Source: Eledone cirrhosa | Taxonomy: Eukaryota | DNA length: 64,000 nt | Direction: 5' to 3' | Assembly: GCA_964016885.1 (NCBI GenBank) | Contig: OZ024740.1 | Span: forward strand, 110,174,001 to 110,238,000 | Shown: one piece after another, positions 6,101 through 52,510 of the stretch | Layout of the letters: each line of letters starts with the position of its first letter | Numbering within the stretch: the stretch's first letter is position 1 | Notes under the pieces: generated by a model | Databases searched by the model: none | Told to the model about the DNA's origin: nothing | What the model saw: only the letters and a program-made list of their open reading frames with translations | Translations under genes and position numbers: made by a program

Positions 6101-6730
6101 CAGGCATGACAGAGCTGTACAATACATACATTGGATAATGTGTAAGCATTTTGACCTGCCCCATCAAAAGAATTGGTGGGAGCATCAACCACCTCCCATA
6201 CTTGAAAAAGATCACATCTCAATCTTGTAGAACTTTAGCATCCAATCAGACCGAAAAATAGATGCAAATAGACCTGATATAATATTGAAGGACTTTAAAA
6301 AGAGGGTATGCCTGCTAATTGATATGTCTGTTCCAATAGACAAGAATGTATCTATAAAAACATTTGAAAAATTGAGCAAGTATAAGGACCTGGAGATAGA
6401 AATTGGAAAAATGTGGAAATTGAGAACTAAAACAATACCAGTGGTTGTAGGCGCTCTGGGAATGATACCTAAGGGGTCTAATGATTACTTATCGCAAATC
6501 CCAGGAAACCCGCGTATAGGAGAAATACAAAAGATAGTACTAATGGGAACTGCCCATATACTAAGGAAGATTCTATCAATATAAGTACATCACAAGTCTA
6601 AACACTAAAGATGCATGTGTGAGTGTGTGTGTTCTTTCTTGAACATGGCGGACCTTGTTGTCTCTTGAGGTCACTGGTTGTGACTTGGTGATAACTCGTA
6701 TGAACATAAAGCAAGATAAATGCAATTGTA
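3180..6730 (+). mobile_element. R4/Dong-clade non-LTR retrotransposon (RT, CCHC finger, restriction-like endonuclease), 5'-truncated, in (TAA)n
   Basis: RT motifs KSPGKD, NYRPITCL, IDYKKAFDS, GIFQGDSLSP and FYMDDLKL. Finger CRVC...ETIDHIISMC, then RHD and RPDII...LIDMSVP (RLE). One frameshift at about 5235 and a TAG stop at 6228-6230. (AAT)n lies on both flanks (3151-3178, 6730-6741). Confidence 0.9.
3208..6584 (+). pseudogene. R4/Dong polyprotein, split into ORFs 3208-5256, 5217-6230 and 6285-6584
   Basis: Collinear RT, zinc finger and RLE domains broken by one frameshift and one stop. Confidence 0.85.
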
Positions 6731-8737: not shown

Positions 8738-8779
8738 CATACATACATACATACATACATACATACATACATACATAAT

Positions 8780-10920: not shown

Positions 10921-11557
10921 CATACAAATATAATGGCGACCGTTGTGGTCAGTGTCCGATAATCGGACGTGTGTAATTACGGCTTACATGAAGGCAACAT
11001 ACCATATATTGGAAAAAGTTGAGCTACATTATGCGGTAAGATTACATACAATAAATAATTCTACATAGGTGTTTGAACTGTAAGTGTGTTGTAAAACACC
11101 TATTTATATGAACGATACATACACTTATGATATATGAACGATACATACACTTTAACATATAAATGCAACGTTGTTGTATTACATTTATAAAGAAATATAC
11201 AAGTAACGTTTTCGATTCAGAAACAAAAACATAAGTGTTTGAACTGTGAATATGTTGTGAATAAGTTGTAGAACACCTATTTATATGAATGATACATAAA
11301 CTTTAACATATAAATACAGCGTTGTTATATTATATTACATTCATAAAGAAATATACCAAGTAACGGTTCTTTTTGTTCTCGATTCAAACGATTCAAGAAC
11401 AACGTTGTAGAATTAAAAATTAACTGAAAAGAAATATTACCCAAGTTGTGAATAATTTTAAATATGATTCTGACAGAACTTTGTCGAAAATTTTAAAGAA
11501 GATCATCGACTATTTTGAAAAATAAATACGAAATATTAGTGAATAGACGAACTCATC

Positions 11558-14500
11558 ATGGCAAAAAGTACAAGTCTCCTTCGACCAAATCGCAACTACA
11601 ACCGTTGTATACAATGGAGCTACGAGCTTAACAAAGTATTATATGAAGCATACAAACAATCTGAACCCCAAAAGTTCGGTTTTATGCAAAGGCTAAAAAC
11701 TTTATGGAACTCCAAACACCCAGAATTAGACTTTTCTCCAAAGCATTTAAATGAACAGGCAAAACGTATCATTAGATGTAAATTGATACATCTAACGGAA
11801 TTGAGTGATACTACAAATACAGCCCTTGTAGACAACCACCCCACCTCCACTGACAGACAAAGAGAATGGCCAGCTAAATCTAACAGTGAACAGCTCACCA
11901 ACAATTTTGCTGAAATCTATCCCACTTCTAATGAAGAACAGCGAGAAAGGTCAGCTAACTCTAGTAGTAATTGTCACCACATCAACAACGAGGCTGAAAT
12001 TCATGACTCTACTGAACAAACAGAACACCAAAAACTTGTGGACACCCTACAAGTGATATGGAACGATATGTTTCAAGAGATACACAGCCTTAATGTGAGT
12101 GACAGACCATACAACACCAGAATCAGTAAAGAACCAACTAAATTGGAATTGGAAGCGGTGAACGAAATAGCTGGCAATTATCTGAAGGCTATACGATCTA
12201 AAGGTGTAGAAACGACAATTGAAACGCTTAATGTTTTGTTATATGTTTCAGCTGTCACACGATATCATATAACACACATCTAAAACCACGCAATCAAGAT
12301 ACAAACAGAAAGCCTGAACCAGCGTGGATGCGAAATTTAAAAACCAAAATTTTGTCCCTGAGACGAAGTATCTCACACATCGCAGTCGTTATGAAATGCA
12401 ACATAGAGAGCAACTTCACACGACACCAGGAAGACCCAAAGAAAAAGTTAGAGACGATTTGGAGATACAAAATTTAAAACTTTGAACTCCAAATTACACC
12501 AGTTGAAACAACAACTCACAGCTACAACAGAGAGACTAAAATATAAGTCAACAGCACATAAACGACAAGTGCTAAATAAATTGTTTGCCAGAGATCCTAA
12601 ATCAGTTTATCGCAGCTTCAGGTGGCAAAAGCTCAATCCCTGTAAACGACACCCCTTCAAAAGAACAGGTTGAGAGCTACTGGAGATCTGTATGGGAAAT
12701 GGATGACGGATTCAACAGACAAGCTAATTGGCTAAAAGAACTGGAACAGGACTACTGCCAACATGTCCAGATAAAACAATATGACATAGATGGGTCAATA
12801 CTGGAAACATCTCTACAGAAAATGTCGAATAGGAAATCGCCAGGCCCAGACCTCATTACAGGATACTGGTTGAAGAATTTCACTTTCTATCGGCAAGATC
12901 TCATACGGCTGTTTACAGAAATCATTAAAGGCACACAAGAACTGCCCAGATGGTTATCAACTGCCACTACTCTCCTCATTCCCCAAAATAGCCAAACCAC
13001 CCTTGCTAAAAATTACCGCCCAATAGCCTGCCAAAACATCATGTATAAATTATATACTGGGTGCCTTAACCTGTTCTTACAGGATCACTGTGCTACCAAC
13101 AACATCGTAACACCTGAGCAAGCTGGTGGAAAGAGGGAGGTGTGGGGTTACATAGATCACCTACTAACTAACAAAATGATTCATGAAAAAACAACAAAGA
13201 ATCGCAGAAACATGACTGTGGTGTGGCTGGACTATCAAAAAGCATTTGATAGTGTACCTCATGGGTAGATTATTAAGGCTTTACAGTTAGCTAAAATCCC
13301 CAAACCATTGGTAGCTGCTGTTGAACGCCTGACCAAGAACTGGTACACCAATTTGATCCTTAGAGGTGAGAAGGAGCAAGTTAAGACTGATAAGATACAT
13401 TACCAGAAGGGCATCTTTCAGGGTGATAGCTTGTCAGTGCTACTCTTCGTTCTCTCACTGAATCCACTATCTTACCTACTCAGGAAACAAGGTGGACAAA
13501 GAAGTGGGTCCAGAAGTATCTCCCATCTTTTCTTTGTTGATGACCTGAAGTTGTATGGGCCAAATATCAATGACATCAAGAAACAATTGGACCTCATTAC
13601 ACAATTTTCAACAGACATCAAAATGAAATTTAGTGAGTCCAAGTGTGCATATTTGGCAGTAAAACGTGGAAGAGCTGTGCCCTCCTCTAGAAATCTAGAG
13701 ATGAACGGCCTGACAATACAACCTCTACAATCAGGTGACAACTACAGATATCTTGGACAGGATGAGAATGTCAGATATGATGGACCCATAAATAAGGAGA
13801 GAACCAGAACTGAATACCTCAGAAGAGTAAAGAAAATATGGTCATCAGAATTGTCAGCATACAACAAATACATTGCCCACAATACTTATGCTGTGCCAAT
13901 TCTAACGCCAACATTTGGCCTGCTGAACTGGTCATTGCAAGAACTAAGTGAGATGGATGTTAGAACTCGAAAACTTCTAAGTGTTACTGGGAACTTTAAC
14001 ATCAATGGTGATGTGGATAGGCTATACTTCTCACGCAAGGAAGGTGGCCGGGGTCTAAAATCAATATTAACAACATATGAGACCCGGATAGTAACACTGA
14101 AGCAACACCTTCAACAGAGGAAAAAGGTTGGCAACCATCTTTCCCAGGTTTATGAGCACGAAAAAAAAAATATCATTAGAATAGCCACTGATCTGGAGGA
14201 GAGATATGGAATAAAGCCTGATATAAATCTCTCACCCAGAGAAATCGGAAGATCATATTCAATGTTCAAACAAGATAAAAAAATTGACCAATTTACAGAA
14301 AAAGTTGTGCATGGATACTTGAGGCGTAAAACACAGACCATAGAGGGAATAAACCACTCAAAAAGCCTGGCATGGAGTTCCGACAAGTTTATGACATCAC
14401 ACCTTGAGGGATATCTTTATGAAATACAGGAACAAGAACTCCCTACCAAATATCTGCTGCACAAAAGAGGAGGGCCAGCAGCTGACAATAAATGTAGGCT

Positions 14501-15145
14501 ATGTAAAACAAAGATCGAGGATGTAAGCCACATTGTTGCCAGCTGCGAAAGAATGTCATCTCGCTACTACCTCCCCATGAGACACGATGGGATAGCTAGA
14601 ACCATCTGGAACGCACTTCGGAAAACAAAATTAACAACAAACGAGGAAGAATATATTGAGACAGATGACACCAAGGAATACTGGTGGAACCTGAAAATAA
14701 AAACTGCCACCAAATTAAAGCACAACCGGCCTGATATTTTTGTTTGGGACCACACATCTTAAACGTGTTCTGTTGTGGAGATCAGCTGCCCACTTTATGT
14801 AAACGTTGTCAGAAAAATACAAGAGAAGGAGGACATCTACGGACCATTGATGAGGAGTTTACAAATCCAGTATCCAAGATACACCTTTAGCTTCATACCC
14901 ATCATTATTGGAGCTACGGGTTATATACCAACCCGCTTGGACCAAAGTATGACTGAACTTGGATTTGCGGACAAAAAGCGCAGCTCCCTAATTCATAGTC
15001 TACAAATGGCTGCGATAGCTGGCACCTTCAAAATTTGCAAAACATTCTTGCGATTCAAGGGATGACAATTTCTTTTCTTTTACAACCTTACCATCAGGAA
15101 GGTGGCCGGTCAAAAAAATATACTCGAAATTAAGAGAAAGAGATT
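11558..15145 (+). mobile_element. R4/Dong-clade retrotransposon, second family, near full-length but with several frameshifts and stops
   Basis: ORFs 11558-12283, 12482-12673, 12585-13268, 13308-14762 and 14775-15065. Nearly identical to 8780-10920 over the shared 2.1 kb and followed by CATA/CA repeats. Confidence 0.9.
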
Positions 15146-20529: not shown

Positions 20530-22320
20530 TATATAAGATCAAAAGATGGTTAAAAGAGTTCCATGTATTTTATTATGCGCATTTCAAAAACAAATATCAT
20601 CATGCGATGACATTTGCGTTTTCGTCAGATAAAATAGGGAGACATGATATGAAGGTTAAAAAACACTTGTGAATAGTGCAGTTTTAAATCAACATATGAA
20701 AAGTACTTTTAGATTGATGTGTGATATTGTGAAAAAAATTGGGGGTGGTGGTGGTGGTGGTGGAAAGGATGAAAAAGAGGAGGAGATGAGAGTAAAGAAT
20801 GGAGGAGGAGGAGTATAATAAGGAAGGATGAGATAGGAGGAGAGATGGGTGATAGAGAGAGAGAGATAGCTTTTATAACTGAGAAAAATATATTGTTTTA
20901 CAGAGAGAGGTTAAACAATCGTTCGAAGATAATATATAAATTAAAAGAATTTGAAAATTAACGAAGAGAAAAATTTAAGAATAATGTTAAATTAAGGTTT
21001 GTATATTGAAGGGTTTAATAATATGTGCGATGAAAAGAAATTCTTAATATGTATTAAGAATAATATTAAGTTAAGGTTTGAATATTGAAGGGTTTAATAA
21101 TATGTGCGATGGAAAGAAATTGTTGATATGTATTATTAAAAAATAAAAAAATAGTAATGTAATTAAGGATATATTGTGAAAAGAAGTAGAAGAGTGGATG
21201 AATTAATATATGTAAATAGTTTGTTTACAAATGAGCGCAGAAAGTCAAGAAGGAGATAGTGTTTAAGGAGAAGTCCTTAACATCAAAATATGTATGTTTA
21301 TGAAGTATTTCCTAATGGTAATAATATAATGTAATAAAAGAGATTAGTTAGGGTTTAAGTTTGATTTTATGTGTTGTGATGTGTAATATGTAGAAGTTAG
21401 ATGAGCATGAGAGGGAGAAAAAAATAATGAATTGAGGATGAATAATCTAACGTAAAAAAAAAATGTTTATGTTTACGAAGGATTTTTCAAGATGATACTA
21501 TAAAGTATTTAAAAGGGTAATAGTAAATTTTATGGCTAGTGATAGGATGGAAGAGGGAAGAGTGGATATATTGTGGTGAGTAATAATGAGAATTGAGAAG
21601 TATCTAGGAAGAAAAGATACAGATTAGAGGTTAGAAATTATAAGAAAAAAGGAAAAAAAGGAAGAAAGGGAAGTGATAAATAGGAGTGATATAGAATGAG
21701 TAACTAGTATTATATAATGCATAATAAATAACATTGAAATAAGGTAGAAAGATGGGTATATTTTTAAAGAAATATATATGTACATATGTGCCTTTGAGAA
21801 AAAGGATTTTAAATTGGTAAAGTATTAGATATTAGCTGTATACTTTATGGAATGTTCTGTGGAATTTATGCAAGCAGAGAGAAAACAAGTCAGTGCGTCT
21901 ATTTATTATAGAATCTAAATTAGATATAATGGTAAATTTTTCACATAAATAGAGATTACATGTCTTGGATAGAGAGGCATTCAAGTATGGAGAAGCAGAA
22001 CAAACCTTCCTCCAAGAGATGTTATAGTTAATATTTTTGTCTTTCAAGGACCATATGAGTTCTGAGAGTGCCGTGTTGGTTCTTTTAAGTTGGTATTTAA
22101 AAGACGAATGATGATTATAAAGACGAGCTTTAAAGGAGGTGGAAGTGGAGCCAAAATAAGTAAAGGAATTGGTGTCAATTATAAGTTTACATTCATAGAT
22201 TAAGTTTTTTTCAAGACAATGGTTGTTGAGAGGACATTTATTTTTAACAGGGCAATTACAATTGACCACTACCACGTCACAGTTCTCAACCATTTTGAAT
22301 TCGTGTTTGGCGCGGGCCAC
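20530..22320 (-). mobile_element. 5'-truncated Penelope-like element (GIY-YIG domain, 3'UTR and HHR)
   Basis: ORF 21832-22320 has CNCPVKNKCPLNNHCL, LIYEC...YFGSTSTSFKARLYNHHSSF and CEKFTI...INRRTD. A pyrimidine-rich 3'UTR follows and ends in an HHR next to (TA)n. Confidence 0.85.
20568..20634 (-). ncRNA. Minimal type I hammerhead ribozyme
   Basis: Minus strand: ttttat-CTGACGA-aaacgcaaatgtcatc(gcat)gatgatatttgttttt-GAAA-tgcgca-TA-ataaaa. Stems I and II pair and stem III is palindromic. Confidence 0.85.
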
Positions 22321-22350
22321 TTCAGAAAATAATATGTCTAGCGAGTTTAC

Positions 22351-22426
22351 CGCTTGAAGAGCTCTAAACTCGAGTATGAACCTTAAATAAGGTATCTCAA
22401 AAGAGAGCGAAACCCATGGGTCGGGA
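22351..22426 (+). ncRNA. Degenerate hammerhead ribozyme
   Basis: TTGAAGA (C3U)-gctct...agagc-GAAA-cccatggg-TC-ggga. Stem II and palindromic stem III are good, but stem I is poor. Confidence 0.5.
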
Positions 22427-22724
22427 TTTAGTGATTTAATCCTGGTATGTATATAAGCATTTCTAACATTAATTTTTACCTAATTATGTATGGTTGACCG
22501 TGTATTTAATTAATTTCTACGTGCTGTCGAAACGTTGGGTAGATGTTCTATAGCGGTTGCACGCGAAGACGCCACGATGGTGTATCTATTTACTGTTTCA
22601 TCATAGATGTCTTTAATTCTTATAGCCTGGTCTAATTGATTTTTTGTGTGGTTAATTGTGCTGATTAGGAGTAGAGATGATGTATATATATTATCAAATA
22701 ATTCTCTGGACATGCTTTACTCTA

Positions 22725-22810
<86 letters not shown>

Positions 22811-22816
<6 letters not shown>

Positions 22817-24020
22817 GACGTAAATAAGAAAGTTATGAAAATTGACTTACTTACTAAAATTTCACTCCAACTAATTAGTTTCTGTAAGGGGATAAATATG
22901 GTTACGGAGCGTTTCCATAGAGAAGCCTTACGTCATCAGGGAGTCTATTCTCAGCTAAGCTTCCAGGCAATGCGGGGACACTGGGAACTTATATAAAAAT
23001 AATTCAGTGGATGGAAAAAAGCGAGCGTGGACTAGATTACAAGACATTGAAAAATTCGCTGCCTACTTGGTCAAGTGGCAAATTCAAAAGAATCAATCAC
23101 GTGACACTGAGGTTAATCAGCTAGGAGTCGGGTGCTATTAAGACAGAGCCTAGCCACTACTATTAGTTACAGTAGTAATTTCGGCAAGTTTTGCTCAACA
23201 AATAATTTGGAGATAATTATAAAGAATTAGTATATTTACCAACATATGTATACAGATGCATACGTATGCTAGCAAATATATATGTTTTGTCTTAGTAACT
23301 TTGTGGTTTTATGCAAGGGGATGCAGAACAATTATATGAAAGACGTAAATAAGAAAGTTATGAAAATTGACTTACTTACTAAAATTTCACTCCAACTAAT
23401 TAGTTTCTGTAAGGAGATAAATATGGTTACGGAGCGTTTCCATTTGCTAGCATACGTATGCATCTGTATACATATGTTGGTAAATATACTAATTCTTTAT
23501 AATTATCTCCAAATTATTTGTTGAGTAAAACTTGCCGAAATTACTACTGTGACTAATAGTAGTGGCTAGGCTCTGTCTTAATAGCACCCCACTCCTAGCT
23601 GATTAACCACAGTGTCACGTGATTGATTCTTTTGAATTTGCCACTTGACCAAGTAGGCAGCGAATTTTTCAATGTCTTGGAATCTAGTCCCCGCTCGATT
23701 TTTTTCCATCCACTGAATTATTTTTATATAAGTTCCCAGTCTCCCCGCATTGCCTGGAAGCTTAGCTGAGAATAGACTCCCCGATGACGTAAGGCTTCTC
23801 TACGGAAACGCTCCGTAACCATATTTATCCCCTTACAGAAACTAATTAGTTGGAGTGAAATTTTAGTAAGTAAGTCAATTTTCATAACTTTCTTATTTAC
23901 GTCTTTCATATAATTGTTCTGCATCCCCTTGCATAGAGCCACAAAGTTACTAAGACAAAACATATATATTTGCTAGCATACGTATGCATTTGTATACATA
24001 TGTTGGTAAATATACTAATT

Positions 24021-24027
<7 letters not shown>
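22811..24027. mobile_element. Foldback insertion of a ~525-bp non-coding monomer, flanked by (TA)n
   Basis: The left arm 22811-23442 is 1.2 monomers (the start recurs at 23336). The right arm 23442-24027 is an inverted, differently permuted 1.1 monomers. HHR-like cores lie at 22903-22939 (-) and 23781-23817 (+). Confidence 0.85.
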
Positions 24028-24051
<24 letters not shown>

Positions 24052-24296
24052 CAAAGATCGGAATTAAGAGTATTCCGCAGTTCACTGTAATAATAATAAT
24101 AGTATTAGCTCAAAGAAGAATAGAGAATTTTCTTCTGAGCTCAAATGCAAACATATTACACAAAGAGAAGTGTGTTACACAGTGAGATGTGTGTAAAGAA
24201 TTATTACAAGTGAGTTTTACCGTTACTGTATAGAGAACAATATCTACAGGTTTAGCAATTAAATAATAATTGTTTACACACATCTCACTGTATATA

Positions 24297-24364
<68 letters not shown>

Positions 24365-24383
24365 CAAGTTCTTTAATAATAAT

Positions 24384-24457
24384 GCTGTGGTATATATTTC
24401 AATGGCGACACTGGCCACACTGTTATGTGTGCGAGTGTCGTGACATCATCAGACAGC
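24384..24457 (-). ncRNA. Type I hammerhead, copy 1 (U16.1 mutated, probably inactive)
   Basis: gctgt-CTGATGA-stem II-GAAA-tatata-CC-acagc. Confidence 0.65.
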
Positions 24458-25648
24458 TTGTTACATTATAAGGTTATGTTTCCGAGGCAATCCAAATTGA
24501 ATCGACAGGGGAACGGATGAAATGCGTACTTTTGGGTTTATCACCCGCTCCCCTGTGAGTACCAATTCACCCCCACCGGTCTGCACGTTCGCATGTCCGA
24601 AGGAAGTTGACCATTAGCTACCGCAGATTTCAACGAAATACGCTTAGTCAGTTCACCCTCTCAGTGACACAATGGCCCGTACCATAGTCTACTGCTACCC
24701 ATCTCGACTGTGGTAGTCAGTCGAAAGCCAGAGGGGGTGGGAGAGTGTTAATTTTTACAGGTCATAATACTACCTCTCACCTAGCGTGGACAGTACGACT
24801 GACCATCAACTCAAAGGGAAATGAACTTAATTCTAGGTATCATGATTTTACATTGTAAGTTAAGAGTGAGAGTTGGAAATAAAAATTAAAGTCCTAAATC
24901 AAGTATCAGAAATTATAAATTAAACAATTAAAAAATTAACAATTAGTAATTAAAAGTTAGAAATTTTTTTAAAGTGAGAATTCGGATTGAGGTGAGTAAA
25001 AAAATATAGATTGAAGTGAGTAAATAATATGGAGAGAGATGTTTAAGTAAGAAGTTCTGAGAGGGGTTCTAGTGTCACAGTTACTCTATCCACATATTGA
25101 ACGACAGTGCCGTACATTAGAACGGAGGGTAAGCTACAGTATTCAAGGCATTAGTCAATCTGGTACAGTCATAATTTCCATCACATGGAACAACACCAAA
25201 GAAAAACAGACATAGAAGTAAAAATGCAAAAACACAGAGTACATATATGCAAAATGATCCATATGATTGTCAATCCGTCCATGTATAGATTGAATTGAGG
25301 GGGCTTCTGTTCAAATGCGATTTGGTGCAGGGAAATAGGGGTTTATCTTATTTTTTGTTTCCGTGTATTTATCCTGCCGAAAGTTACTATTATGTCCGTC
25401 CAGTTTCAGGGGTTTCCATCCCCATGGTAGAGGGAATTTCCGGGGAAGCTCATGGTTGGTTCCTCTCTTCTCCACCATATCGGTTACATCGTAAAGCGCT
25501 CAACTAATTGGAGCTAAATTATTAGGGTAAACATTGATGCAATTCAATTCAAGCACTCAACGTACTTTTTCCACATAGGAGTGACGGAGTAAATATCGAG
25601 TAAGGAAAAGCGAAGTAGTTTCAGATGTTCAAGTCCTTTAATAATAAT

Positions 25649-25722
25649 GCTGTAATATATATTTCAATGGCGACACTGGCCACACTGTTCTGTGTGCGAG
25701 TGTCGTGACATCATCAGACAGC
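25649..25722 (-). ncRNA. Type I hammerhead, copy 2
   Basis: gctgt-CTGATGA-stem II-GAAA-tatata-TT-acagc, exactly 1265 bp from copy 1. Confidence 0.75.
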
Positions 25723-27132
25723 TTGTTGCATAATAAGGTTATGTTTCCGAGGCAATCCAAATTGAATCGACAGGGGAACGGATGAAATGCGTGCTTTTGG
25801 GTAGCAGTAAACTATGGTACGGGCCATTGTGTCACTGAGAGGGTGAACTGACTAAGCGAATTTCGTTGAAATCTGCGGTAGCTAATGGTCAAATTCCTTC
25901 GGACATGCGCACGCGCAGACCGGTGGGGTGAATTGGTACTCACAGGGGAGTACCAATTTTCCTTATTCGATATTTACTCCGTCACTCCTATGTGGAAAAA
26001 GTACGTTGAGTGCTTGAATTGAATTGCATCAATGTTTACCCTAATAATTTAGCTTCAATTAGTTGAGCGCTTTACGATGTAACCGATATGGTGGAGAAGA
26101 GAGGAACCAACCATGAGCTTCCCCGGAAATTCCCTCTACCATGGGGATGGAAACCCCTGAAACTGGACGGACATAATAGTAACTTTCGGCAGGATAAATA
26201 CACGGAAACAAAAAATAAGATAAGCCCCTATTTCCCTGCACCAAATCGAATTTGAACAGAAGCCCCCTCAATTCAATCTATACATGGACGGATTGACAAT
26301 CGGATCATATGGATATTAATCGGATCATATGGATCATTTTGCATATATGTACTCTGTGTTTTTGCATTTTTACTTCTATGTCTGTTTTTCTTTGGTGTTG
26401 TTCCATGTGATGGAAATTATGACTACCAGATTGACTACTGCCTTGAATACTGTAGCTTACCCTCCGTTCTAATGTACGGCACTGTCGTTCAATATGTGGA
26501 TAGAGTAACTATGACACTAGAACCCCTCTCAGAACTTCTTACTTAAACATCTCTCTCCATATTATTTACTCACTTCAATCTATATTTTTTTACTCACCTC
26601 AATCCGAATTCTCACTTTAAAAAAATTTCTAACTTTTAATTACTAATTGTTAATTTTTTAATTGTTTAATTTATAATTTCTGATACTTGATTTAGGATTT
26701 TAATTTTTATTTCCAACTCTCACTCTTAACTTACAATGTAAAATCATGATACCTAGAATTAAGTTCATTTTCCCTTTGAGTTGATGGTCAGTCGTAGTGT
26801 CCACGCTAGGTGTGAGGTAGTATTATGACCTGTAAAAACTAACACTCTCCCACCCCCTCTGGCTTTCGACTGACTACCACAGTCGAGATGGGTAGCAGTA
26901 AACTATGGTACGCGCCATTGTGTCACTGAGAGGGTGAACTGACTAAGCGAATTTCGTTGAAATCTACGATAGCTAATGGTCAACTTCCTTCGGACATGCG
27001 CACGCGCAGACCGGTGGGGGTGAATTGGTACTCACAGGGGAGCGGGTGATAAACCCAAATGCACGCATTTCATCCGTTCCTCTGTCGATTCAATTTGGAT
27101 TGCCTCGGAAACATAACCTTATTATGTAACAA

Positions 27133-27206
27133 GCTGTCTGATGATGTCACGACACTCACACACATAACAGTGTGGCCAGTGTCGCCATTGAAATATATAT
27201 CACAGC
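27133..27206 (+). ncRNA. Type I hammerhead, copy 3 (intact AUC cleavage triplet)
   Basis: gctgt-CTGATGA-tgtcacgacact...agtgtcgccatt-GAAA-tatata-TC-acagc. Confidence 0.8.
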
Positions 27207-27356
27207 ATTATTATTGTGCCAAAAGTAGAAACAATTATTATTAAAGGACTTGAACATCTGAAACTACTTCGCTTTTCCTTATTCGATATTTACTCCGTCA
27301 CTCCTATGTGGAAAAAGTACGTTGAGTGCTTGAATTGAATTGCATCAATATTTACC

Positions 27357-27429
<73 letters not shown>

Positions 27430-27977
27430 TATTAAAATAACAGATTAAAGTTTAAGCAAAGAATCGCTGCTTTCACCCTTAACTGGATCTTCTGAAACTA
27501 ACAAGGTCAATCTGTAAACGCAGAAGTGAATATTTAAAAAAACGTTGCAACCGGAGGAAGACAGGAAGACGATACTTTGGTTCGTGGAAACGTTCCCTGG
27601 CAAAGAACGGAAAAAAAACGAATATAATACGTCAAACAATTACACGCAAAGACAAAACCACGTTTATGGTATACAAGAAGTCGTAGACTAATATTCTATT
27701 AGGTGGTTCATAGAGACGTTCTCTGGCAATGAACGAAAAAAACGAAGATAATACGTCATATGTGGAGCGTGGAGAACAATTGCACGCAAAGACAAAACCA
27801 CGTAAATGGTATAACTGAAGTCGTAGACTAAAATTCTAACTAGGAAACCGAATGATTCTCGGCTTCAGAGTTAAGAATAAAGTAAATAAAATACAGAGGT
27901 AATTGAAATTAAATAAATACATACATGCATCCATATACGTACATACTCAAGCATACGCGAAAACTCCCGCCGTATAG

Positions 27978-28032
<55 letters not shown>

Positions 28033-28539
28033 CAATATATTTAGAAACACACAGATACATGCGGACACACGCATATACATGAATGCATCCACACCCAACC
28101 GTGAGTTAATGGTGCCAACCTCACCGATGTTGCTCAATGAATGACTGGGACAGACCAATCCGGTTGAATTAGACTGAACCGGTATCAGAGTTAAAAATAC
28201 GTTATGAAGAGAGAAGAAACATTTAGATATAATTAGTAATAAAATGTATCATACCTAAACTGCTCCCAGATTCCTCGACTACGTAGTTTCGTGGCATAAA
28301 CAAAAACAATACATCATAAAGATATAGAGTCTCTGCGAGGTCTGCCGACTTATCAAGAGGATACCTCATTTTACTAGCTTCAAGAACGCGTCTACACGAC
28401 GTGAGAAAGAATCCCAAAAGGCGGAGGGGGAGATAGTCACGCGATATAACGGTCGAGAAACAGAGCTAAGCCTCTTATAACCCCGAAGAAAATACCACGG
28501 AGGCGGAGGGGGTATTTATATCGAAGCCGTAGAAGAGAT

Positions 28540-28875
28540 ATATATATAAATAATATATATATATATAAATAATATATATATATATAAATAATATATATAT
28601 ATATAAATAATATATATATATAAATAATATATATATAAATAATATATATAAATAATATATATATATAGAAATAATATATATATATATAAATAATATATGT
28701 ATATATATATAAATAATATATATATATCTATATAAATAATATATATAAATAATATATATATATATATAAATAATATATATATAAATAATATATATATATA
28801 TATAAATAATATATATATATATAAATAATATATATATATATATATAAATAATATATATATATAAATAATATATAT
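28540..28875 (+). repeat. (TA)nAATAA compound microsatellite; resumes in the same orientation at 36241-37115
   Basis: Units of 'tatatataaataa' lie on the + strand on both sides of the palindrome. Confidence 0.9.
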
Positions 28876-29034
28876 ATATTGTTATACTTTGGGAGGGTCA
28901 TGTTGCCAATAAGAAACATACGCACCAGTTGCTTTCACTTCAATTTAATTTAATATATATTTATAAATTTACAAATTTATAAATTTCTGGTTGGTTGGTT
29001 GGTTCCACAACCAGATAGTTGTTTATATATATAT

Positions 29035-29079
29035 AGTCATAGTTCTTTCGTCACACACTCTGTGACCTCTTCAGTGACT
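29035..29079 (-). ncRNA. Minimal type I hammerhead ribozyme (left arm)
   Basis: Reverse complement of 35982-36026. Confidence 0.85.
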
Positions 29080-29376
29080 GGGGATTTCTTTCTTCGTTTC
29101 TGTGCCTTTCCTTTCTTCTATCCTACGCCATTTTGTTTGTGTGTGGGTTGCGTGCTCAGTTTGCGCATGCGCCACATCCGGGTGTCTGTGTGTGTTTGTG
29201 TTCATTTTTCTATTTTTCTATTTATATTTGTTTGTTTATTTATTTATTTATTGTTGGTTGGTTGTTTGTTCTATGTGTGTGTGTGTTTTCATTTTGTCTT
29301 GTGTGTGTTTTCATTTTGTGTGTGTTTTCAATTGTAAGTTGTTTGTTCTATGTGTGTGTGTGTTTTCATTTTGTCC

Positions 29377-32300
29377 TTAATTGTAAGTTGTGATGTTGCT
29401 GTTCCACTCATATTTTCTATTTAATTTTGGTTTTAATTCTTTTATGCTTACTGCCTCTGTAATTTGCCTAAACATTGCGTCTTTCTTGTGTGTGGATTCT
29501 ATTTTTATTTCTATGCTCTCTAATTTACCCCTGTGTTCTATCTTAGCATGTTGGTAGAGCACAGATGATTCTTTACTATCTTGGAGGTCTCGCCAGTGTT
29601 CATTTATTCGTTCCCCTATACTACGAGCTGTCTCACCTATGTACACTATATTTTTGTTTCTACATTGTCCCTCAGTACATCTTATGCTATATACTACATT
29701 TCTAGTTTTACAGTTAATATGGGGGCTTATTTTACAGGTTATACATTTCTTATCTATACATGAGGGTCTTTGGAACGGGTATGTCTTGCTAATAAGTGTT
29801 TTTACGGAGGTACCAGGTCTTTCTACTATCTTAATATTGAGATTATGTTTCTTTAGGGCCCTTCTAAATTTGTAGGCTAGTTCGCCTCTAGGGGTTGTAT
29901 TGATGAACATTACACTCTGGTATTTATTGCTATCATACCATGAGTTTATTCTATTGGCCTTGTTCTTAGTTCTTTCTATTCTATTCCAAAATTTGCTCCT
30001 ATACAAGGGGCAGGTCCCATTTATGTCATTATTTACCATTTTTTCCCATTTGGTTCTGGCTCCTTTATACACTCTGATTCTATCTCTCTGATTGTAGCCA
30101 GAGAACTGCATACGGTGGATGAAGTGTTGTATGTGTCTCTCTAGTTCTTCGGGGTTGCACATGCGGGACACATTTCTCATCACCCGTATCAAATCCGCAA
30201 TCAGTATGTTGATTTTGGTATGGTCCGAAATGGCCGAGTTTCGGTGGATCAGATGTTTGGAAGTCATGGGTTTGGCATAATGGGAATGGAGGATTTGTTT
30301 TTGGTTGTTAATAGTATCTAACCAGAGCTCTGTGTCTAGTACAGGTAATCGATGGTTGGGGTGTCTACTTGGGTAGTCTATAGTAACTCTAATGCTCTGG
30401 TGGATGGAGTTTGCTATTTGCTGGATGCTTTCCATTGTGTTTTTCTCAGGTTCCTGACTGTTCTTTAGTGGGGGTGTCTTAACTACGATGTTTATATCAT
30501 CTACGTAGCGGGAGTACATTATCAGGGTTAAGCTGTCTTCTAATTGTTCTTTAAGTTTTTGTTTAAGTCTACTGTCCCACCATACCATGAACAAGTTAGC
30601 TATGTCGCCTGCAATGCTAACACCAATGGCTGCTCCTTCCTCTTGGGCATATGTTTTACCATTAAATTTGAACATATGTTCCTTAAGGGTTAATTTTATG
30701 CTGGCCCCTACCGCATGTGCAATCATTTTCTTCAGTTCATCGTGGTTTTCGGGTGTCCGTATGGCTCTGGTCCACCCGTTCCATCTATCTGTGTGGGTTT
30801 TCTTGGCCATTGAGGTAATGGTAGGTGGTCTGCCTCTTGCTGGTCTTGTAGGGCACAGGTTGCTAAGGTCATAAGTGTCTAGGTAACTATTACTATGGGT
30901 AAGCTTAAGTAGAAGTCCCAGCTCACTGGTATCAATCCCACGGAACTCAACCTTGCTCTCGCTGATCATTTCGACGCATTTCTCCACAGCAAAATCCACG
31001 TCAATAGATGGATACAGGGACACAACATCCATACTGCCTATTATGCAGTTTGTTAGGTCCCCAGATCGGTTACCCGCGTCGATTCTGCTGAGGAGGTCCT
31101 CCGTGCTGTCACACACATCTGGGGACATCTCAATGATGGGGCGTATGATCAGGGAGAGGAAGTAGGACAGTCTGTAGTTACTAGCAATGTTAGCCCCACA
31201 GACTGGCCGTGTTGGTGGTCCCGCGACAGGGTCCCAGCCCGTTTTATGGTCTTTTCGAAGCCCATACAACGCCGGCACGTCATTGTTCCAGGCCTGGAAG
31301 TTGTTGGCAGTCCTTTTGTTGGGCTGCATTATATTTGTCCACATCACCATATGGGCATTGAGGGTTTTTTCTCTATCCTCATGCTCCTGTGGTGTTACCT
31401 CTCTTGTGTTAGTGATGTGGGGTTGCATTGCCTGGATGTAGTTTGGCAGGCTGTCAACCGACATTCTGCCAGACTTGTCTGTTGGAAAGCATGCTATCTC
31501 TCCATTACGCGAGCGCTGCATGAGCTTACGCAAGCCATTTGCAGATTCTTCTCCCAGTTGCTGGGCCTCTATTCTATTATGCTTCTTGCTATACTGTTCT
31601 ATAATATTTCTAAGTTCGGATTTAGCTATACTAAATTGTGCTTCTGTTTGTTCATCGACCTGCGACGGCAACTGCGTGCGTTTGTTAAATGGCAAAGTCG
31701 TGGCGTGGACTCGTCGTAGGTCGAATGATTTATCGGAGGGGTTATAAAACGGAGAGTTCCAGGCTGCTGCTTTATGTGTACTAGTGCTATTGTTAGTTGT
31801 GTTGTTTCTATTTCCACCAACAGCAGCAGCCTCAGCTTCATGGTTGTTTCTATGTCTCTCATAATTACTCCTGTCTCTTTCCACTGGCTCAATGTTGTTA
31901 TCTACCCTATTTTGTGTGTCTGTGTGTTCGTCTTGGTTATTCTCTTTGTCCTTAGTCTCCCTACTCCTTTTAATCCTATTACTTTCTCTTATTTCTCTGA
32001 TTTCTGTGCTACTGTCATTACTTGTTTTCTGTGTCTGTGTGTTTGTTAAGATTGTAGTGGTGGTGAGAGGCATTGAATGTGTGTGTGTTGTTGTTGTTGA
32101 TGTGTGTTGTTGTTGATGTGTGTTGTTGTCTCCGTGTGTGTGTGTGTTATCGTTGTTGTGTGTGTTGTTATTGTTGTTTGTGTTTGCGTGTCTGTTGTTG
32201 TTGTATCTGGGTATGTTGCTGTTGTTGTTGTTGTTGATGTGTGTGTTGTTGTTATTGTTGTCTCCGTGTGTGTTGTTATTGTTGTTTGTGTCTGCGTGTC

Positions 32301-32523
32301 TGTTGTATCTGGGTATGTTGCTATTGTTGGTATTGTATCTGGGTATGTTGCTATTGTTGTTGTTATTGTTGTTTGTGTCTGTGTGTCTGTTGTTGTTGGG
32401 ATGTGTGTTGTATATGTGTGTGCGTATATTGTTGCTTTTGTTTTTGTTTTTGATGCTCCAGCGTAGTTTCGTAAATGATTTTTCTATTTCTGACAGACAA
32501 CTAATTCTATTTCTGACAGACAA
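29377..32523 (-). CDS. Penelope-like RT and GIY-YIG polyprotein (left arm, uninterrupted, N-terminus cut at the apex)
   Basis: PTDKSGRM, ALYGLRKDHK, PTRPVCGA, GSMDVVSLYPSI, GAAIGVS, YSRYVDDI, LPVLDT, a Cys-rich linker CIDKKCITC, and VVYSIRC...YIGETARSIGERINEH...RQITEA...LNRKYEWN. Confidence 0.9.
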   Translation of the reverse strand: MSVRNRISCLSEIEKSFTKLRWSIKNKNKSNNIRTHIYNTHPNNNRHTDTNNNNNNNSNIPRYNTNNSNIPRYNRHADTNNNNNTHGDNNNNNTHINNNNNSNIPRYNNNRHANTNNNNNTHNNDNTHTHGDNNTHQQQHTSTTTTHTHSMPLTTTTILTNTQTQKTSNDSSTEIREIRESNRIKRSRETKDKENNQDEHTDTQNRVDNNIEPVERDRSNYERHRNNHEAEAAAVGGNRNNTTNNSTSTHKAAAWNSPFYNPSDKSFDLRRVHATTLPFNKRTQLPSQVDEQTEAQFSIAKSELRNIIEQYSKKHNRIEAQQLGEESANGLRKLMQRSRNGEIACFPTDKSGRMSVDSLPNYIQAMQPHITNTREVTPQEHEDREKTLNAHMVMWTNIMQPNKRTANNFQAWNNDVPALYGLRKDHKTGWDPVAGPPTRPVCGANIASNYRLSYFLSLIIRPIIEMSPDVCDSTEDLLSRIDAGNRSGDLTNCIIGSMDVVSLYPSIDVDFAVEKCVEMISESKVEFRGIDTSELGLLLKLTHSNSYLDTYDLSNLCPTRPARGRPPTITSMAKKTHTDRWNGWTRAIRTPENHDELKKMIAHAVGASIKLTLKEHMFKFNGKTYAQEEGAAIGVSIAGDIANLFMVWWDSRLKQKLKEQLEDSLTLIMYSRYVDDINIVVKTPPLKNSQEPEKNTMESIQQIANSIHQSIRVTIDYPSRHPNHRLPVLDTELWLDTINNQKQILHSHYAKPMTSKHLIHRNSAISDHTKINILIADLIRVMRNVSRMCNPEELERHIQHFIHRMQFSGYNQRDRIRVYKGARTKWEKMVNNDINGTCPLYRSKFWNRIERTKNKANRINSWYDSNKYQSVMFINTTPRGELAYKFRRALKKHNLNIKIVERPGTSVKTLISKTYPFQRPSCIDKKCITCKISPHINCKTRNVVYSIRCTEGQCRNKNIVYIGETARSIGERINEHWRDLQDSKESSVLYQHAKIEHRGKLESIEIKIESTHKKDAMFRQITEAVSIKELKPKLNRKYEWNSNITTYN

Positions 32524-32552
32524 CTAATCATATTTACCTTCTGAAGGTAAAT

Positions 32553-35500
32553 ATGATTAGTTGTCTGTCAGAAATAGAAAAATCATTTACGAAACTACGC
32601 TGGAGCATCAAAAACAAAAACAAAAGCAACAATATACGCACACACATATACAACACACATCCCAACAACAACAGACACACAGACACAAACAACAATAACA
32701 ACAACAATAGCAACATACCCAGATACAATACCAACAATAGCAACATACCCAGATACAACAGACACGCAGACACAAACAACAATAACAACACACACGGAGA
32801 CAACAATAACAACAACACACACATCAACAACAACAACAACAGCAACATACCCAGATACAACAACAACAGACACGCAAACACAAACAACAATAACAACACA
32901 CACAACAACGATAACACACACACACACGGAGACAACAACACACATCAACAACAACACACATCAACAACAACAACACACACACATTCAATGCCTCTCACCA
33001 CCACTACAATCTTAACAAACACACAGACACAGAAAACAAGTAATGACAGTAGCACAGAAATCAGAGAAATAAGAGAAAGTAATAGGATTAAAAGGAGTAG
33101 GGAGACTAAGGACAAAGAGAATAACCAAGACGAACACACAGACACACAAAATAGGGTAGATAACAACATTGAGCCAGTGGAAAGAGACAGGAGTAATTAT
33201 GAGAGACATAGAAACAACCATGAAGCTGAGGCTGCTGCTGTTGGTGGAAATAGAAACAACACAACTAACAATAGCACTAGTACACATAAAGCAGCAGCCT
33301 GGAACTCTCCGTTTTATAACCCCTCCGATAAATCATTCGACCTACGACGAGTCCACGCCACGACTTTGCCATTTAACAAACGCACGCAGTTGCCGTCGCA
33401 GGTCGATGAACAAACAGAAGCACAATTTAGTATAGCTAAATCCGAACTTAGAAATATTATAGAACAGTATAGCAAGAAGCATAATAGAATAGAGGCCCAG
33501 CAACTGGGAGAAGAATCTGCAAATGGCTTGCGTAAGCTCATGCAGCGCTCGCGTAATGGAGAGATAGCATGCTTTCCAACAGACAAGTCTGGCAGAATGT
33601 CGGTTGACAGCCTGCCAAACTACATCCAGGCAATGCAACCCCACATCACTAACACAAGAGAGGTAACACCACAGGAGCATGAGGATAGAGAAAAAACCCT
33701 CAATGCCCATATGGTGATGTGGACAAATATAATGCAGCCCAACAAAAGGACTGCCAACAACTTCCAGGCCTGGAACAATGACGTGCCGGCGTTGTATGGG
33801 CTTCGAAAAGACCATAAAACGGGCTGGGACCCTGTCGCGGGACCACCAACACGGCCAGTCTGTGGGGCTAACATTGCTAGTAACTACAGACTGTCCTACT
33901 TCCTCTCCCTGATCATACGCCCCATCATTGAGATGTCCCCAGATGTGTGTGACAGCACGGAGGACCTCCTCAGCAGAATCGACGCGGGTAACCGATCTGG
34001 GGACCTAACAAACTGCATAATAGGCAGTATGGATGTTGTGTCCCTGTATCCATCTATTGACGTGGATTTTGCTGTGGAGAAATGCGTCGAAATGATCAGC
34101 GAGAGCAAGGTTGAGTTCCGTGGGATTGATACCAGTGAGCTGGGACTTCTACTTAAGCTTACCCATAGTAATAGTTACCTAGACACTTATGACCTTAGCA
34201 ACCTGTGCCCTACAAGACCAGCAAGAGGCAGACCACCTACCATTACCTCAATGGCCAAGAAAACCCACACAGATAGATGGAACGGGTGGACCAGAGCCAT
34301 ACGGACACCCGAAAACCACGATGAACTGAAGAAAATGATTGCACATGCGGTAGGGGCCAGCATAAAATTAACCCTTAAGGAACATATGTTCAAATTTAAT
34401 GGTAAAACATATGCCCAAGAGGAAGGAGCAGCCATTGGTGTTAGCATTGCAGGCGACATAGCTAACTTGTTCATGGTATGGTGGGACAGTAGACTTAAAC
34501 AAAAACTTAAAGAACAATTAGAAGACAGCTTAACCCTGATAATGTACTCCCGCTACGTAGATGATATAAACATCGTAGTTAAGACACCCCCACTAAAGAA
34601 CAGTCAGGAACCTGAGAAAAACACAATGGAAAGCATCCAGCAAATAGCAAACTCCATCCACCAGAGCATTAGAGTTACTATAGACTACCCAAGTAGACAC
34701 CCCAACCATCGATTACCTGTACTAGACACAGAGCTCTGGTTAGATACTATTAACAACCAAAAACAAATCCTCCATTCCCATTATGCCAAACCCATGACTT
34801 CCAAACATCTGATCCACCGAAACTCGGCCATTTCGGACCATACCAAAATCAACATACTGATTGCGGATTTGATACGGGTGATGAGAAATGTGTCCCGCAT
34901 GTGCAACCCCGAAGAACTAGAGAGACACATACAACACTTCATCCACCGTATGCAGTTCTCTGGCTACAATCAGAGAGATAGAATCAGAGTGTATAAAGGA
35001 GCCAGAACCAAATGGGAAAAAATGGTAAATAATGACATAAATGGGACCTGCCCCTTGTATAGGAGCAAATTTTGGAATAGAATAGAAAGAACTAAGAACA
35101 AGGCCAATAGAATAAACTCATGGTATGATAGCAATAAATACCAGAGTGTAATGTTCATCAATACAACCCCTAGAGGCGAACTAGCCTACAAATTTAGAAG
35201 GGCCCTAAAGAAACATAATCTCAATATTAAGATAGTAGAAAGACCTGGTACCTCCGTAAAAACACTTATTAGCAAGACATACCCGTTCCAAAGACCCTCA
35301 TGTATAGATAAGAAATGTATAACCTGTAAAATAAGCCCCCATATTAACTGTAAAACTAGAAATGTAGTATATAGCATAAGATGTACTGAGGGACAATGTA
35401 GAAACAAAAATATAGTGTACATAGGTGAGACAGCTCGTAGTATAGGGGAACGAATAAATGAACACTGGCGAGACCTCCAAGATAGTAAAGAATCATCTGT

Positions 35501-35684
35501 GCTCTACCAACATGCTAAGATAGAACACAGGGGTAAATTAGAGAGCATAGAAATAAAAATAGAATCCACACACAAGAAAGACGCAATGTTTAGGCAAATT
35601 ACAGAGGCAGTAAGCATAAAAGAATTAAAACCAAAATTAAATAGAAAATATGAGTGGAACAGCAACATCACAACTTACAATTAA
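32553..35684 (+). CDS. Penelope-like RT and GIY-YIG polyprotein (right arm)
   Basis: Translation appears identical to the left arm from ISCLSEIEK onward, including the Asn/Thr/His low-complexity insert near the N-terminus. Confidence 0.9.
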   Translation: MISCLSEIEKSFTKLRWSIKNKNKSNNIRTHIYNTHPNNNRHTDTNNNNNNNSNIPRYNTNNSNIPRYNRHADTNNNNNTHGDNNNNNTHINNNNNSNIPRYNNNRHANTNNNNNTHNNDNTHTHGDNNTHQQQHTSTTTTHTHSMPLTTTTILTNTQTQKTSNDSSTEIREIRESNRIKRSRETKDKENNQDEHTDTQNRVDNNIEPVERDRSNYERHRNNHEAEAAAVGGNRNNTTNNSTSTHKAAAWNSPFYNPSDKSFDLRRVHATTLPFNKRTQLPSQVDEQTEAQFSIAKSELRNIIEQYSKKHNRIEAQQLGEESANGLRKLMQRSRNGEIACFPTDKSGRMSVDSLPNYIQAMQPHITNTREVTPQEHEDREKTLNAHMVMWTNIMQPNKRTANNFQAWNNDVPALYGLRKDHKTGWDPVAGPPTRPVCGANIASNYRLSYFLSLIIRPIIEMSPDVCDSTEDLLSRIDAGNRSGDLTNCIIGSMDVVSLYPSIDVDFAVEKCVEMISESKVEFRGIDTSELGLLLKLTHSNSYLDTYDLSNLCPTRPARGRPPTITSMAKKTHTDRWNGWTRAIRTPENHDELKKMIAHAVGASIKLTLKEHMFKFNGKTYAQEEGAAIGVSIAGDIANLFMVWWDSRLKQKLKEQLEDSLTLIMYSRYVDDINIVVKTPPLKNSQEPEKNTMESIQQIANSIHQSIRVTIDYPSRHPNHRLPVLDTELWLDTINNQKQILHSHYAKPMTSKHLIHRNSAISDHTKINILIADLIRVMRNVSRMCNPEELERHIQHFIHRMQFSGYNQRDRIRVYKGARTKWEKMVNNDINGTCPLYRSKFWNRIERTKNKANRINSWYDSNKYQSVMFINTTPRGELAYKFRRALKKHNLNIKIVERPGTSVKTLISKTYPFQRPSCIDKKCITCKISPHINCKTRNVVYSIRCTEGQCRNKNIVYIGETARSIGERINEHWRDLQDSKESSVLYQHAKIEHRGKLESIEIKIESTHKKDAMFRQITEAVSIKELKPKLNRKYEWNSNITTYN

Positions 35685-35981
35685 GGACAAAATGAAAACA
35701 CACACACACATAGAACAAACAACTTACAATTGAAAACACACACAAAATGAAAACACACACAAGACAAAATGAAAACACACACACACATAGAACAAACAAC
35801 CAACCAACAATAAATAAATAAATAAACAAACAAATATAAATAGAAAAATAGAAAAATGAACACAAACACACACAGACACCCGGATGTGGCGCATGCGCAA
35901 ACTGAGCACGCAACCCACACACAAACAAAATGGCGTAGGATAGAAGAAAGGAAAGGCACAGAAACGAAGAAAGAAATCCCC

Positions 35982-36026
35982 AGTCACTGAAGAGGTCACA
36001 GAGTGTGTGACGAAAGAACTATGACT
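35982..36026 (+). ncRNA. Minimal type I hammerhead ribozyme (right arm)
   Basis: agtca-CTGAAGA-g-gtcaca(gagtg)tgtgac-GAAA-gaac-TA-tgact. Perfect 5-bp stem I and 6-bp stem II, minimal stem III, CUA triplet. Confidence 0.85.
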
Positions 36027-37017
36027 ATATATATATAAACAACTATCTGGTTGTGGAACCAACCAACCAACCAGAAATTTATAAATTTGTAAATTTATAA
36101 ATATATATTAAATTAAATTGAAGTGAAAGCAACTGGTGCGTGTGTTTCTTATTGGCAACATGACCCTCCCAAAGTATAACAATATCGGTTTCAACACACG
36201 ATTTCAGATAAAGAATCTTGCTAAACAAATTCAGAAACGAAATATATATATATATATATATAAACAATATATATATAAATAATATATATATATATATAAA
36301 TAATATATATATATATATATAAACAATATATATATAAATAATATATATATATATATAAATAATATATATAAATAATATATATATATAAATAATATATATA
36401 TATATATATATAAATAATATATATATATCTATATAAATAATATATATAAATAATATATATATATATAAATAATATATATAAATAATATATATATATAAAT
36501 AATATATATGTATATATATATAAATAATATATATATATCTATATAAATAATATATATAAATAATATATATATATATAAATAATATATATATAAATAATAT
36601 ATATATATATATATATAAATAATATATATATATCTATATAAATAATATATATAAATAATATATATATATATATAAATAATATATATATAAATAATATATA
36701 TATATATAAATAATATATATATATATATATATAAATAATATATATATAAATAATATATATATATATAAATAATATATATAAATAATATATATAAATAATA
36801 TATATATATATATATAAATAATATATATATATATATATAATATATATATATATATATAAATAATATAATATATATATATATATATAAATAATATATATAT
36901 ATATATATAAATAATATAATATATATATATATAAATAATATAATATATATATATATATATATAAATAATATATATATATATATAAATAATATATATATAT
37001 ATATATAAATAATATAT

Positions 37018-49879: not shown

Positions 49880-52382
<2,503 letters not shown>

Positions 52383-52510
52383 CTTTTTTGTTTTAATTGA
52401 GTTTGAATTATTTTTCTCACATCTTACGTTAATTATTTTCCATTTTGACGTTATAGTCACTTATATATTATGAAATACTGTTGGCTTCATTCTCACAATA
52501 ATTTCTATAC

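What the first reader, a model, noticed from the sequence alone, without database searches (positions are those of the whole stretch)
24362..27360. A 1265-nt non-coding retrozyme-like element present as two circularly permuted, greater-than-monomer arms
Seen: HHR copies at 24384-24457 and 25649-25722 (minus) are exactly 1265 bp apart and define the monomer. The inverted arm starts at a different monomer position (25957), passes a third HHR (27133-27206) and runs on into its own start sequence (27270-27360 repeats 25957-26045). No long ORF is present. Inference: HHR-to-HHR cleavage would release a ~1.27-kb monomer able to circularise. That is well above the few hundred nt usually described for animal non-LTR retrozymes, so this may be an undescribed family.
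Basis: partly seen in the sequence, partly recalled or inferred. Interest (0 to 1): 0.8.

Follow-up and report, generated by a model that had tools for sequence, protein, structure and literature searches.

The report
Ribozyme-bearing hitchhiker of Penelope retrotransposons
This is one copy of a large family of 1.3-kb non-coding repeats that carry a hammerhead ribozyme motif and insert as two back-to-back arms, likely by borrowing the enzymes of Penelope-like retrotransposons and likely from a circular RNA.

Summary
In detail: three type I hammerhead motifs, a 1265-nt non-coding period and two head-to-head, more-than-unit arms in (TA)n. The locus is one copy of a dispersed family (2,900 ribozyme-motif matches in a 3.0-Gb animal genome; 43 natural units of 1.0-1.4 kb; no ORF; no coding parent found). 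Copy ends are not scattered. Of 217 arms, 205 end at one of two sites, about 56 or 134 nt past the cleavage site, and 57 of 64 two-armed loci carry one of each, none two alike. That is the published Penelope-like (PLE) 'tail plus inverted copy' signature. Seven of about 150 loci are fused to Neptune-type PLE sequence, the likely helper. Tandem copies within an arm evolve in concert (97% concordance at diagnostic sites; 7 shared private variants, 0.12 expected), which points to a unit-length, likely circular, template. No RNA data exist here, so cleavage and circles are untested. This copy is probably dead: its outer ribozyme has a core mutation. Verdict: a new, long, dispersed variant of non-LTR retrozyme or non-autonomous PLE, not a new kind of element.

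The parts
24300..24361 (.). (TA)n target microsatellite, left flank
   Evidence: sequence
24362..25802 (-). Arm 1, RNA sense on minus strand: 176 nt of the previous unit plus one full 1265-nt unit (m1 = 25626, m1265 = 24362). Its 3' end, 27 nt past the cleavage site, is a rare end class (2 of 217 arms)
24384..24457 (-). HHR1: type I minimal hammerhead motif, triplet ACC (U16.1 changed), predicted inactive
   Evidence: 252 of 259 family motifs keep C17 and 259 of 259 keep U16.1 within the search tolerance
25649..25722 (-). HHR2: type I minimal hammerhead motif, triplet AUU, predicted weaker
25798..25950 (+).
   Evidence: (I9, D8)
25931..25958 (.). 11-bp fold-back at the switch from the internal piece to arm 2
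25957..27362 (+). Arm 2: m18 to m1265, then m1-107; ends at the long start site
27133..27206 (+). HHR3: intact core, 5-bp stem I, long stem II, palindromic loop 3, predicted cleavage after AUC at 27201
27216..27233 (+). 18-nt 3' end of a very abundant SINE, inserted 5 nt past the cleavage site with a 9-nt duplication (27207-27215 / 27234-27242)
27256..27362 (+). Tail: most conserved part of the family. It holds the two inferred reverse-transcription start sites, near 27284 (m29) and 27362 (m107)
27363..27421 (.). (TA)n target microsatellite, right flank
28876..36240 (.). Neighbouring coding PLE (N1), two inverted arms 99.7% identical with 1048/1055-aa open frames (RT, Cys linker, GIY-YIG); same architecture; candidate helper family, not part of the element

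Best explanation
This is one copy of a dispersed, non-coding, 1.3-kb hammerhead-bearing repeat family that likely moves as a non-autonomous Penelope-like retroelement. Inferred cycle: a more-than-unit copy is transcribed. The hammerheads, predicted to work as dimers through the palindromic loop 3, would cut out one unit, which is likely ligated into a circle. A Neptune-type PLE protein would then cut both strands of a (TA)n tract and prime reverse transcription on that RNA from both DNA ends: one end at the start site about 134 nt past the ribozyme junction, the other at the site about 56 nt past it. Each cDNA runs through the junction and stops at a variable point, sometimes beyond one full unit, and the two are joined 5'-to-5' by short homologies. 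Shown: family, unit, two fixed ends with one of each per locus, (TA)n target, conserved ribozyme motif, concerted evolution of repeats, fusions to Neptune-type PLE sequence. Inferred: cleavage, circularisation, identity of the helper. Odds by step: PLE-type non-autonomous element 0.9; unit-length or circular template 0.6; Neptune-type helper 0.6.
For: Ends: 104 of 217 arms end at m19-38 and 101 at m100-112; 57 of 64 two-armed loci have one of each, 0 have two alike. This matches two internal RT start sites and both-strand extension by a purified PLE (PMC11167929) and the tail at one end only (PMC8557442). Non-coding: 43 natural units, up to 22.5% apart, longest stop-free 62-140 aa and not shared across subfamilies; no tblastn hit to 10 PLE/LINE proteins at E<=0.05. 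An older subfamily (67-80% identical in the body) keeps the same unit and ends. Ribozyme: among 259 motifs the only common changes are N7 (U196/C62), loop UAUAUA to UAUGUA (36; still self-pairs through G-U) and stem II, with A-U 105 / G-C 48 at one pair. Template: tandem copies in one arm agree at 1060 of 1093 diagnostic sites (665 expected) and share 7 locus-private variants (0.12 expected); inverted arms 2234 of 2337 and 21 (0.47 expected). Within-locus difference (3.1-3.4%) is about that within subfamilies (3.2-4.3%), so later gene conversion is not the main cause. Helper: junctions with N1/N2-type PLE sequence at L015, L038, L072, L079, L120, L129, L172; N1 and N2 show the same (TA)n, two-end, inverted layout.
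Against: No RNA evidence (one search listed no RNA holder). No arm has three ribozymes in a row (0 of 217), though only about 1 would be expected from truncation rates. Second-unit stretches are somewhat shorter than first-unit ones (10 of 33 vs 35 of 61 reach past m1000), which suits a linear template with a 5' end. In vitro, HHR cleavage was not needed for PLE insertion and unprocessed RNA was the main substrate (PMC11167929). The monomer is not unusually self-paired as a circle (z -1.7, -1.1, +0.1; 14 shuffles each). The base of stem II is irregular, one stem II pair is A-C in 55 of 216, and Rfam finds no hammerhead. The unit has no sequence likeness to N1, N2 or the window's Hydra-like pieces. 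Mixed loci do not follow one end rule (long+long L038, short+short L172, long+short L120). Three other fusions involve a Hydra-like ORF (L151) or other HHR families (L173, L177), so nested insertion plus deletion may explain some.
Confidence: 0.6

Rival explanations
1. Non-autonomous PLE copied from linear, uncleaved more-than-unit transcripts. The ribozyme acts only in 3' or 5' processing, and the repeats are kept alike by template jumps or conversion. No circle is needed.
For: HHR mutants did not change insertion in vitro, and no reads ended at the cleavage site (PMC11167929). No arm exceeds about 1.7 units and second-unit extensions are short. The monomer is not strongly self-paired. Template switches are frequent.
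Against: Upstream and downstream repeats would be inherited separately and drift apart, yet they agree at 97% of diagnostic sites and share private variants as often as inverted arms do (7 of 96 vs 21 of 244). The catalytic core is kept across subfamilies up to about 30% apart.
Confidence: 0.3
2. Ordinary truncated or internally deleted copies of a coding PLE whose pLTR and UTRs make up the unit.
For: The architecture is exactly that of PLEs; pLTR-like retrozymes derive from PLEs in Xenopus (bioRxiv 10.64898/2026.07.22.740005). Only about 180 loci of a family with 2,900 motif matches were read, so a rare parent could be missed.
Against: The unit runs head-to-tail into itself in 33 arms. Its length stays 1.2-1.4 kb in 41 of 43 units across subfamilies. 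No read copy continues from the unit into a shared ORF, and there is no protein remnant.
Confidence: 0.06
3. Classical rolling-circle retrozyme with randomly permuted copies and tandem arrays, mobilised by a LINE or by some other route.
For: Non-coding unit between type I HHRs; concerted repeats.
Against: Ends are fixed, not random; no arrays of two or more full units; inverted two-armed insertions in (TA)n with no poly(A). The ribozyme is of the PLE minimal type (PMC4209133).
Confidence: 0.03
4. Assembly fold-back artefact.
For: Long inverted repeat between microsatellites.
Against: Arms differ by 4%, with indels and a SINE fragment in one arm only; 64 other loci show the same layout with different break points.
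Confidence: 0.01

Closest known systems
Animal non-LTR retrozymes (Cervera and de la Pena 2020, PMC7229834; Li, Clavereau, Pollet, bioRxiv 10.64898/2026.07.22.740005)
   Same: Non-coding unit delimited by type I hammerheads; non-autonomous; co-exists with PLEs, which both papers propose as the helper.
   Different: Dispersed two-armed inverted insertions of at most about 1.7 units, not tandem arrays. PLE-type minimal ribozyme, not the canonical one. Not highly self-paired. Circular RNA not shown.
EN+ Penelope-like elements of the Neptune type (Craig et al. 2021, PMC8557442; Arkhipova et al. 2013, PMC3846280; Frangieh et al. 2024, PMC11167929)
   Same: Partial tandem forming pLTRs, inverted 5'-truncated copy joined head-to-head, tail at one end only, microsatellite target, minimal HHR with palindromic loop 3 (PMC4209133).
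   Different: No ORF; tail is about 78 nt rather than 30-40; no sequence likeness to the coding PLEs tested.
Non-autonomous Chlamys PLEs such as MRC1 (PMC8557442)
   Same: Non-coding PLE passengers that form pLTRs and head-to-tail copies.
   Different: Those are algal, generally resemble an autonomous family at the 3' end and belong to clades lacking canonical HHRs; this one is animal, has a conserved HHR, and has no recognisable parent.

Membership tests
Non-LTR retrozyme | Non-coding repeat unit with a type I HHR in each unit | tested here: met
Non-LTR retrozyme | [quoted passage not shown] | tested here: inconclusive
   33 of 217 arms have two same-strand HHR junctions, none three; no two complete units in a row
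Non-LTR retrozyme | Small unit (170-400 nt; up to 972 bp) | tested here: not met
   1.2-1.4 kb in 41 of 43 units
Non-LTR retrozyme | Highly self-paired monomer | tested here: not met
   circular MFE z -1.7, -1.1, +0.1 for three monomers
Non-LTR retrozyme | Self-cleavage and accumulation as circular RNA | not testable with these tools
   no RNA run listed; only indirect genomic support
Penelope-like element (autonomous) | Single ORF with RT and GIY-YIG endonuclease | tested here: not met
Non-autonomous PLE | Partial tandem plus inverted 5'-truncated copy | tested here: met
   64 of 152 loci two-armed; 33 arms more than one unit
Non-autonomous PLE | Tail at one end only (two RT start sites) | tested here: met
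   57 of 64 long+short, 0 alike
Non-autonomous PLE | PLE-type minimal HHR (short helix I, long helix II, extra base after A9, palindromic loop 3) | tested here: met
   against PMC4209133; base of helix II irregular
Non-autonomous PLE | Microsatellite target | tested here: met
   (TA)n, at times with (TC)n, at 3' ends
Non-autonomous PLE | Sequence likeness to an autonomous partner at the 3' end | tested here: not met
   43 units vs 26 PLE stretches: one low-complexity hit at E=0.01; only some PLE families of the genome were tested
Non-autonomous PLE | Mobilised in trans by PLE protein | tested here: inconclusive
   7 fusions with Neptune-type PLE sequence, 3 with other families

The most novel reading that the evidence does not exclude
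A long-lived 1.3-kb circular RNA parasite of Neptune-type PLEs. Its ribozyme cuts out one unit, the circle is primed twice, at two fixed sites, from the two ends of a cut (TA)n tract, and mixed insertions record its sharing of a particle with the helper's RNA. This would be direct genomic evidence both for the circular-template model of PLE replication and for PLE mobilisation of animal retrozymes, with a second 525-nt passenger family next door using the same route.
Probability: 0.35. Interest if true: 0.72.

Novelty: new variant of a known kind. Interest (0 to 1): 0.5.

Why it matters
Two points are proposed but not shown in the papers read: that PLEs mobilise animal retrozymes (PMC7229834; bioRxiv 10.64898/2026.07.22.740005) and that PLE more-than-unit copies come from circular templates (PMC4209133). 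This family gives a large natural record for both: fixed and paired start sites, concerted repeats, and fusions to a young coding PLE family with open frames in the same window. With the published in vitro PLE assay (PMC11167929) both points become directly testable. It also shows that HHR passengers above 1 kb would escape searches capped at period 1000. No host function is implied.

Tried and rejected
Rfam at gathering score (whole window) and at E<=10 (22000-37000): no hammerhead. RNA runs: no RNA holder listed; the three runs laid were contigs of unrecorded kind from one sample and added nothing on expression. Coding parent: tblastn of 9-10 PLE/LINE proteins against the monomer and 43 units, blastn of 43 units against 26 PLE stretches, and 30 loci of an older subfamily gave nothing. 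The apparent 4.4-kb array at C2:310.59 Mb is a rearranged cluster of several elements, not a coding parent. Scattered permutation: rejected. A pile-up of 5' ends one full turn from the start (39 of 69 arms stop in m1-140) was considered as a sign of a circle but is only modestly above the drop-off elsewhere and includes alignment splits; not used. A first 140-nt test of shared variants lacked power for tandem pairs (2 in 29) and was replaced. SINE capture at the RNA level (ligation to the cleaved end, or an RT jump) was considered and set aside: the junction omits the first 5 nt after cleavage, and duplications of 0-28 nt resemble those of the same SINE elsewhere. Earlier scan findings: none returned. 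Literature searches found no description of such a family, but subscription papers and repeat libraries such as Repbase or Dfam were not searchable.

Full report
Observation. The stretch 24362-27362 lies between two (TA)n tracts. I number the unit m1-m1265 along the minus strand from 25626. Arm 1 (minus) is m1090-1265 followed by a full unit; then come an inverted piece m926-1079 (25798-25950), an 11-bp fold-back, and arm 2 (plus), m18-1265 plus m1-107. Only the third has AUC; the first has ACC and the second AUU. There is no ORF above 72 aa. Rfam does not score them.

Family. The genome is 3.0 Gb in 1,796 contigs. A 23-nt degenerate ribozyme pattern matches 2,900 times with 0 control matches. 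I read about 180 family loci: 30 best hits, three sets of 30 first hits of exact patterns, 60 further places from two of those lists, and 30 from an older subfamily. Overlapping and duplicate loci were dropped by hand before counts; the hand list differs slightly between scripts (152 loci with scored arms, 148 loci). Forty-three natural units measure 1,002-1,375 nt, fall into subfamilies up to 22.5% apart, and are best conserved in the tail (m1-200) and the ribozyme region. The older subfamily has the same unit and ends. No protein remnant and no likeness to coding PLEs was found.

Ribozyme. Among 259 motifs the common changes are N7, a loop 3 variant that still self-pairs, and stem II pairs, including A-U to G-C; the window's subfamily has A-C there. 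Short helix I, long helix II, an extra base after A9 and a palindromic loop match the PLE minimal HHR, which cleaves weakly and as a dimer (PMC4209133, parts 1-2 of 4 read). Activity here is untested.

Ends. Of 217 arms, 104 end at m19-38 and 101 at m100-112; 57 of 64 two-armed loci have one of each and none has two alike. 5' ends are spread, 184 arms pass one ribozyme junction, 33 pass two, none three. Partial tandems, an inverted 5'-truncated copy and a tail at one end are described as typical of PLEs (PMC8557442, passages and section 11; PMC3846280, passages). A purified PLE cuts and extends both strands and starts at two internal sites that bound the tail (PMC11167929, parts 1-2 of 4). That paper saw no strand difference in start site, so the strict one-of-each pairing here is an addition.

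Template. If the RNA were a linear more-than-unit transcript, upstream and downstream repeats would be inherited apart. They are not: 1060 of 1093 diagnostic sites agree (665 expected) and 7 private variants are shared (0.12 expected; one of the 7 is from a rearranged piece, not a true tandem). Inverted arms give 2234 of 2337 and 21. Within-locus difference equals within-subfamily difference, so the matching arose at or before insertion. A circle, as proposed for PLEs in PMC4209133, explains this most simply, but precise template jumps would too. Against the circle: short second-unit extensions, no excess self-pairing, and the in vitro result that cleavage is dispensable.

Helper. Seven loci join the element to Neptune-type PLE sequence without a (TA)n gap: head-to-head at L015, L038, L072, L079 and L172, same direction at L120 and L129; L015 and L079 have 30- and 77-nt fillers. 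N2 is young (about 98% among 40 hits), and N1 sits in this window with two 99.7% identical arms and open frames. I call them Neptune-type from the Cys-rich linker before a C-terminal GIY-YIG motif (PMC8557442); no tree was built. Three other fusions involve a Hydra-like ORF or other HHR families, and end classes in mixed loci follow no single rule, so the helper is likely, not shown.

SINE. A SINE with 130,470 exact 3' matches sits 5 nt past the cleavage site in 44 of 207 junctions from loci not chosen for it, with 286 exact junction matches genome-wide. Its 5' junctions nearly all differ, and duplications resemble those elsewhere. Occupancy is 45 of 191 at this site against 12 of 140 at other (ATT)3 runs. 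I read it as ordinary target-primed insertion at a good target; it leaves ribozyme and tail intact. Its kinship to cephalopod SINEs is recalled, not tested.

Comparison. It works like a non-autonomous PLE and resembles a non-LTR retrozyme in being a non-coding HHR unit. It fails the retrozyme size and self-pairing features and is dispersed, not arrayed (PMC7229834, passages and sections 14 and 17; bioRxiv 10.64898/2026.07.22.740005, parts 1-3 of 5, supplements not seen and they may list longer families). An octopus repeat annotation does not mention ribozymes (PMC13282606, passages). Seven searches found no description of this family.

Verdict. Real, more than chance, and a new variant of a known kind. 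This copy is probably inactive. The family matters as a natural record that makes two standing proposals testable. Interest 0.5.

Noticed in passing
window 22808-24032: A second non-coding HHR family with a 525-nt period, palindromic loop CUAAUUAG and the same tandem-plus-inverted layout in (TA)n; relatives occur in many loci, and one is fused to the studied element (L173).
   Followed up: partly
window 28876-36240: Very young coding Neptune-type PLE, two inverted arms 99.7% identical with open 1048/1055-aa frames, HHRs at 29079-29035 (-) and 35982-36026 (+), short end left and long end right.
   Followed up: partly
window 20633-20569 (-), 50069-50011 (-), 53936-53860 (-): Further type I HHR motifs of other families, each with a different palindromic loop 3; the first two lie 1.2-1.7 kb downstream of Hydra-like GIY-YIG frames (21832-22479, 51750-52460).
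   Followed up: no
loci L001-L218: Many distinct HHR families with 4-8 nt palindromic loops turn up in flanks, which suggests a dense zoo of PLEs and passengers nesting in each other's (TA)n tails.
   Followed up: no
short ends, e.g. L017, L019, L035, L140: 14 short ends are followed by a (TC)n run before the (TA)n, none of the long ends; possibly repeat addition by slippage at priming, or a compound target.
   Followed up: partly
L069, L086, L108: Two or three SINEs in tandem at the same site behind the ribozyme, each followed by a copy of the target.
   Followed up: partly
L064, L128: Arms that begin at a full-length SINE 5' end with no ribozyme upstream; possibly copied from a SINE-promoted transcript running into the tail.
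   Followed up: no
window 3145-6580 and 8779-14762: LINE-like RT frames with C-terminal zinc-finger and nuclease-like motifs; the first is flanked by (AAT)n. R4/Dong- or HERO-like by recall only.
   Followed up: no
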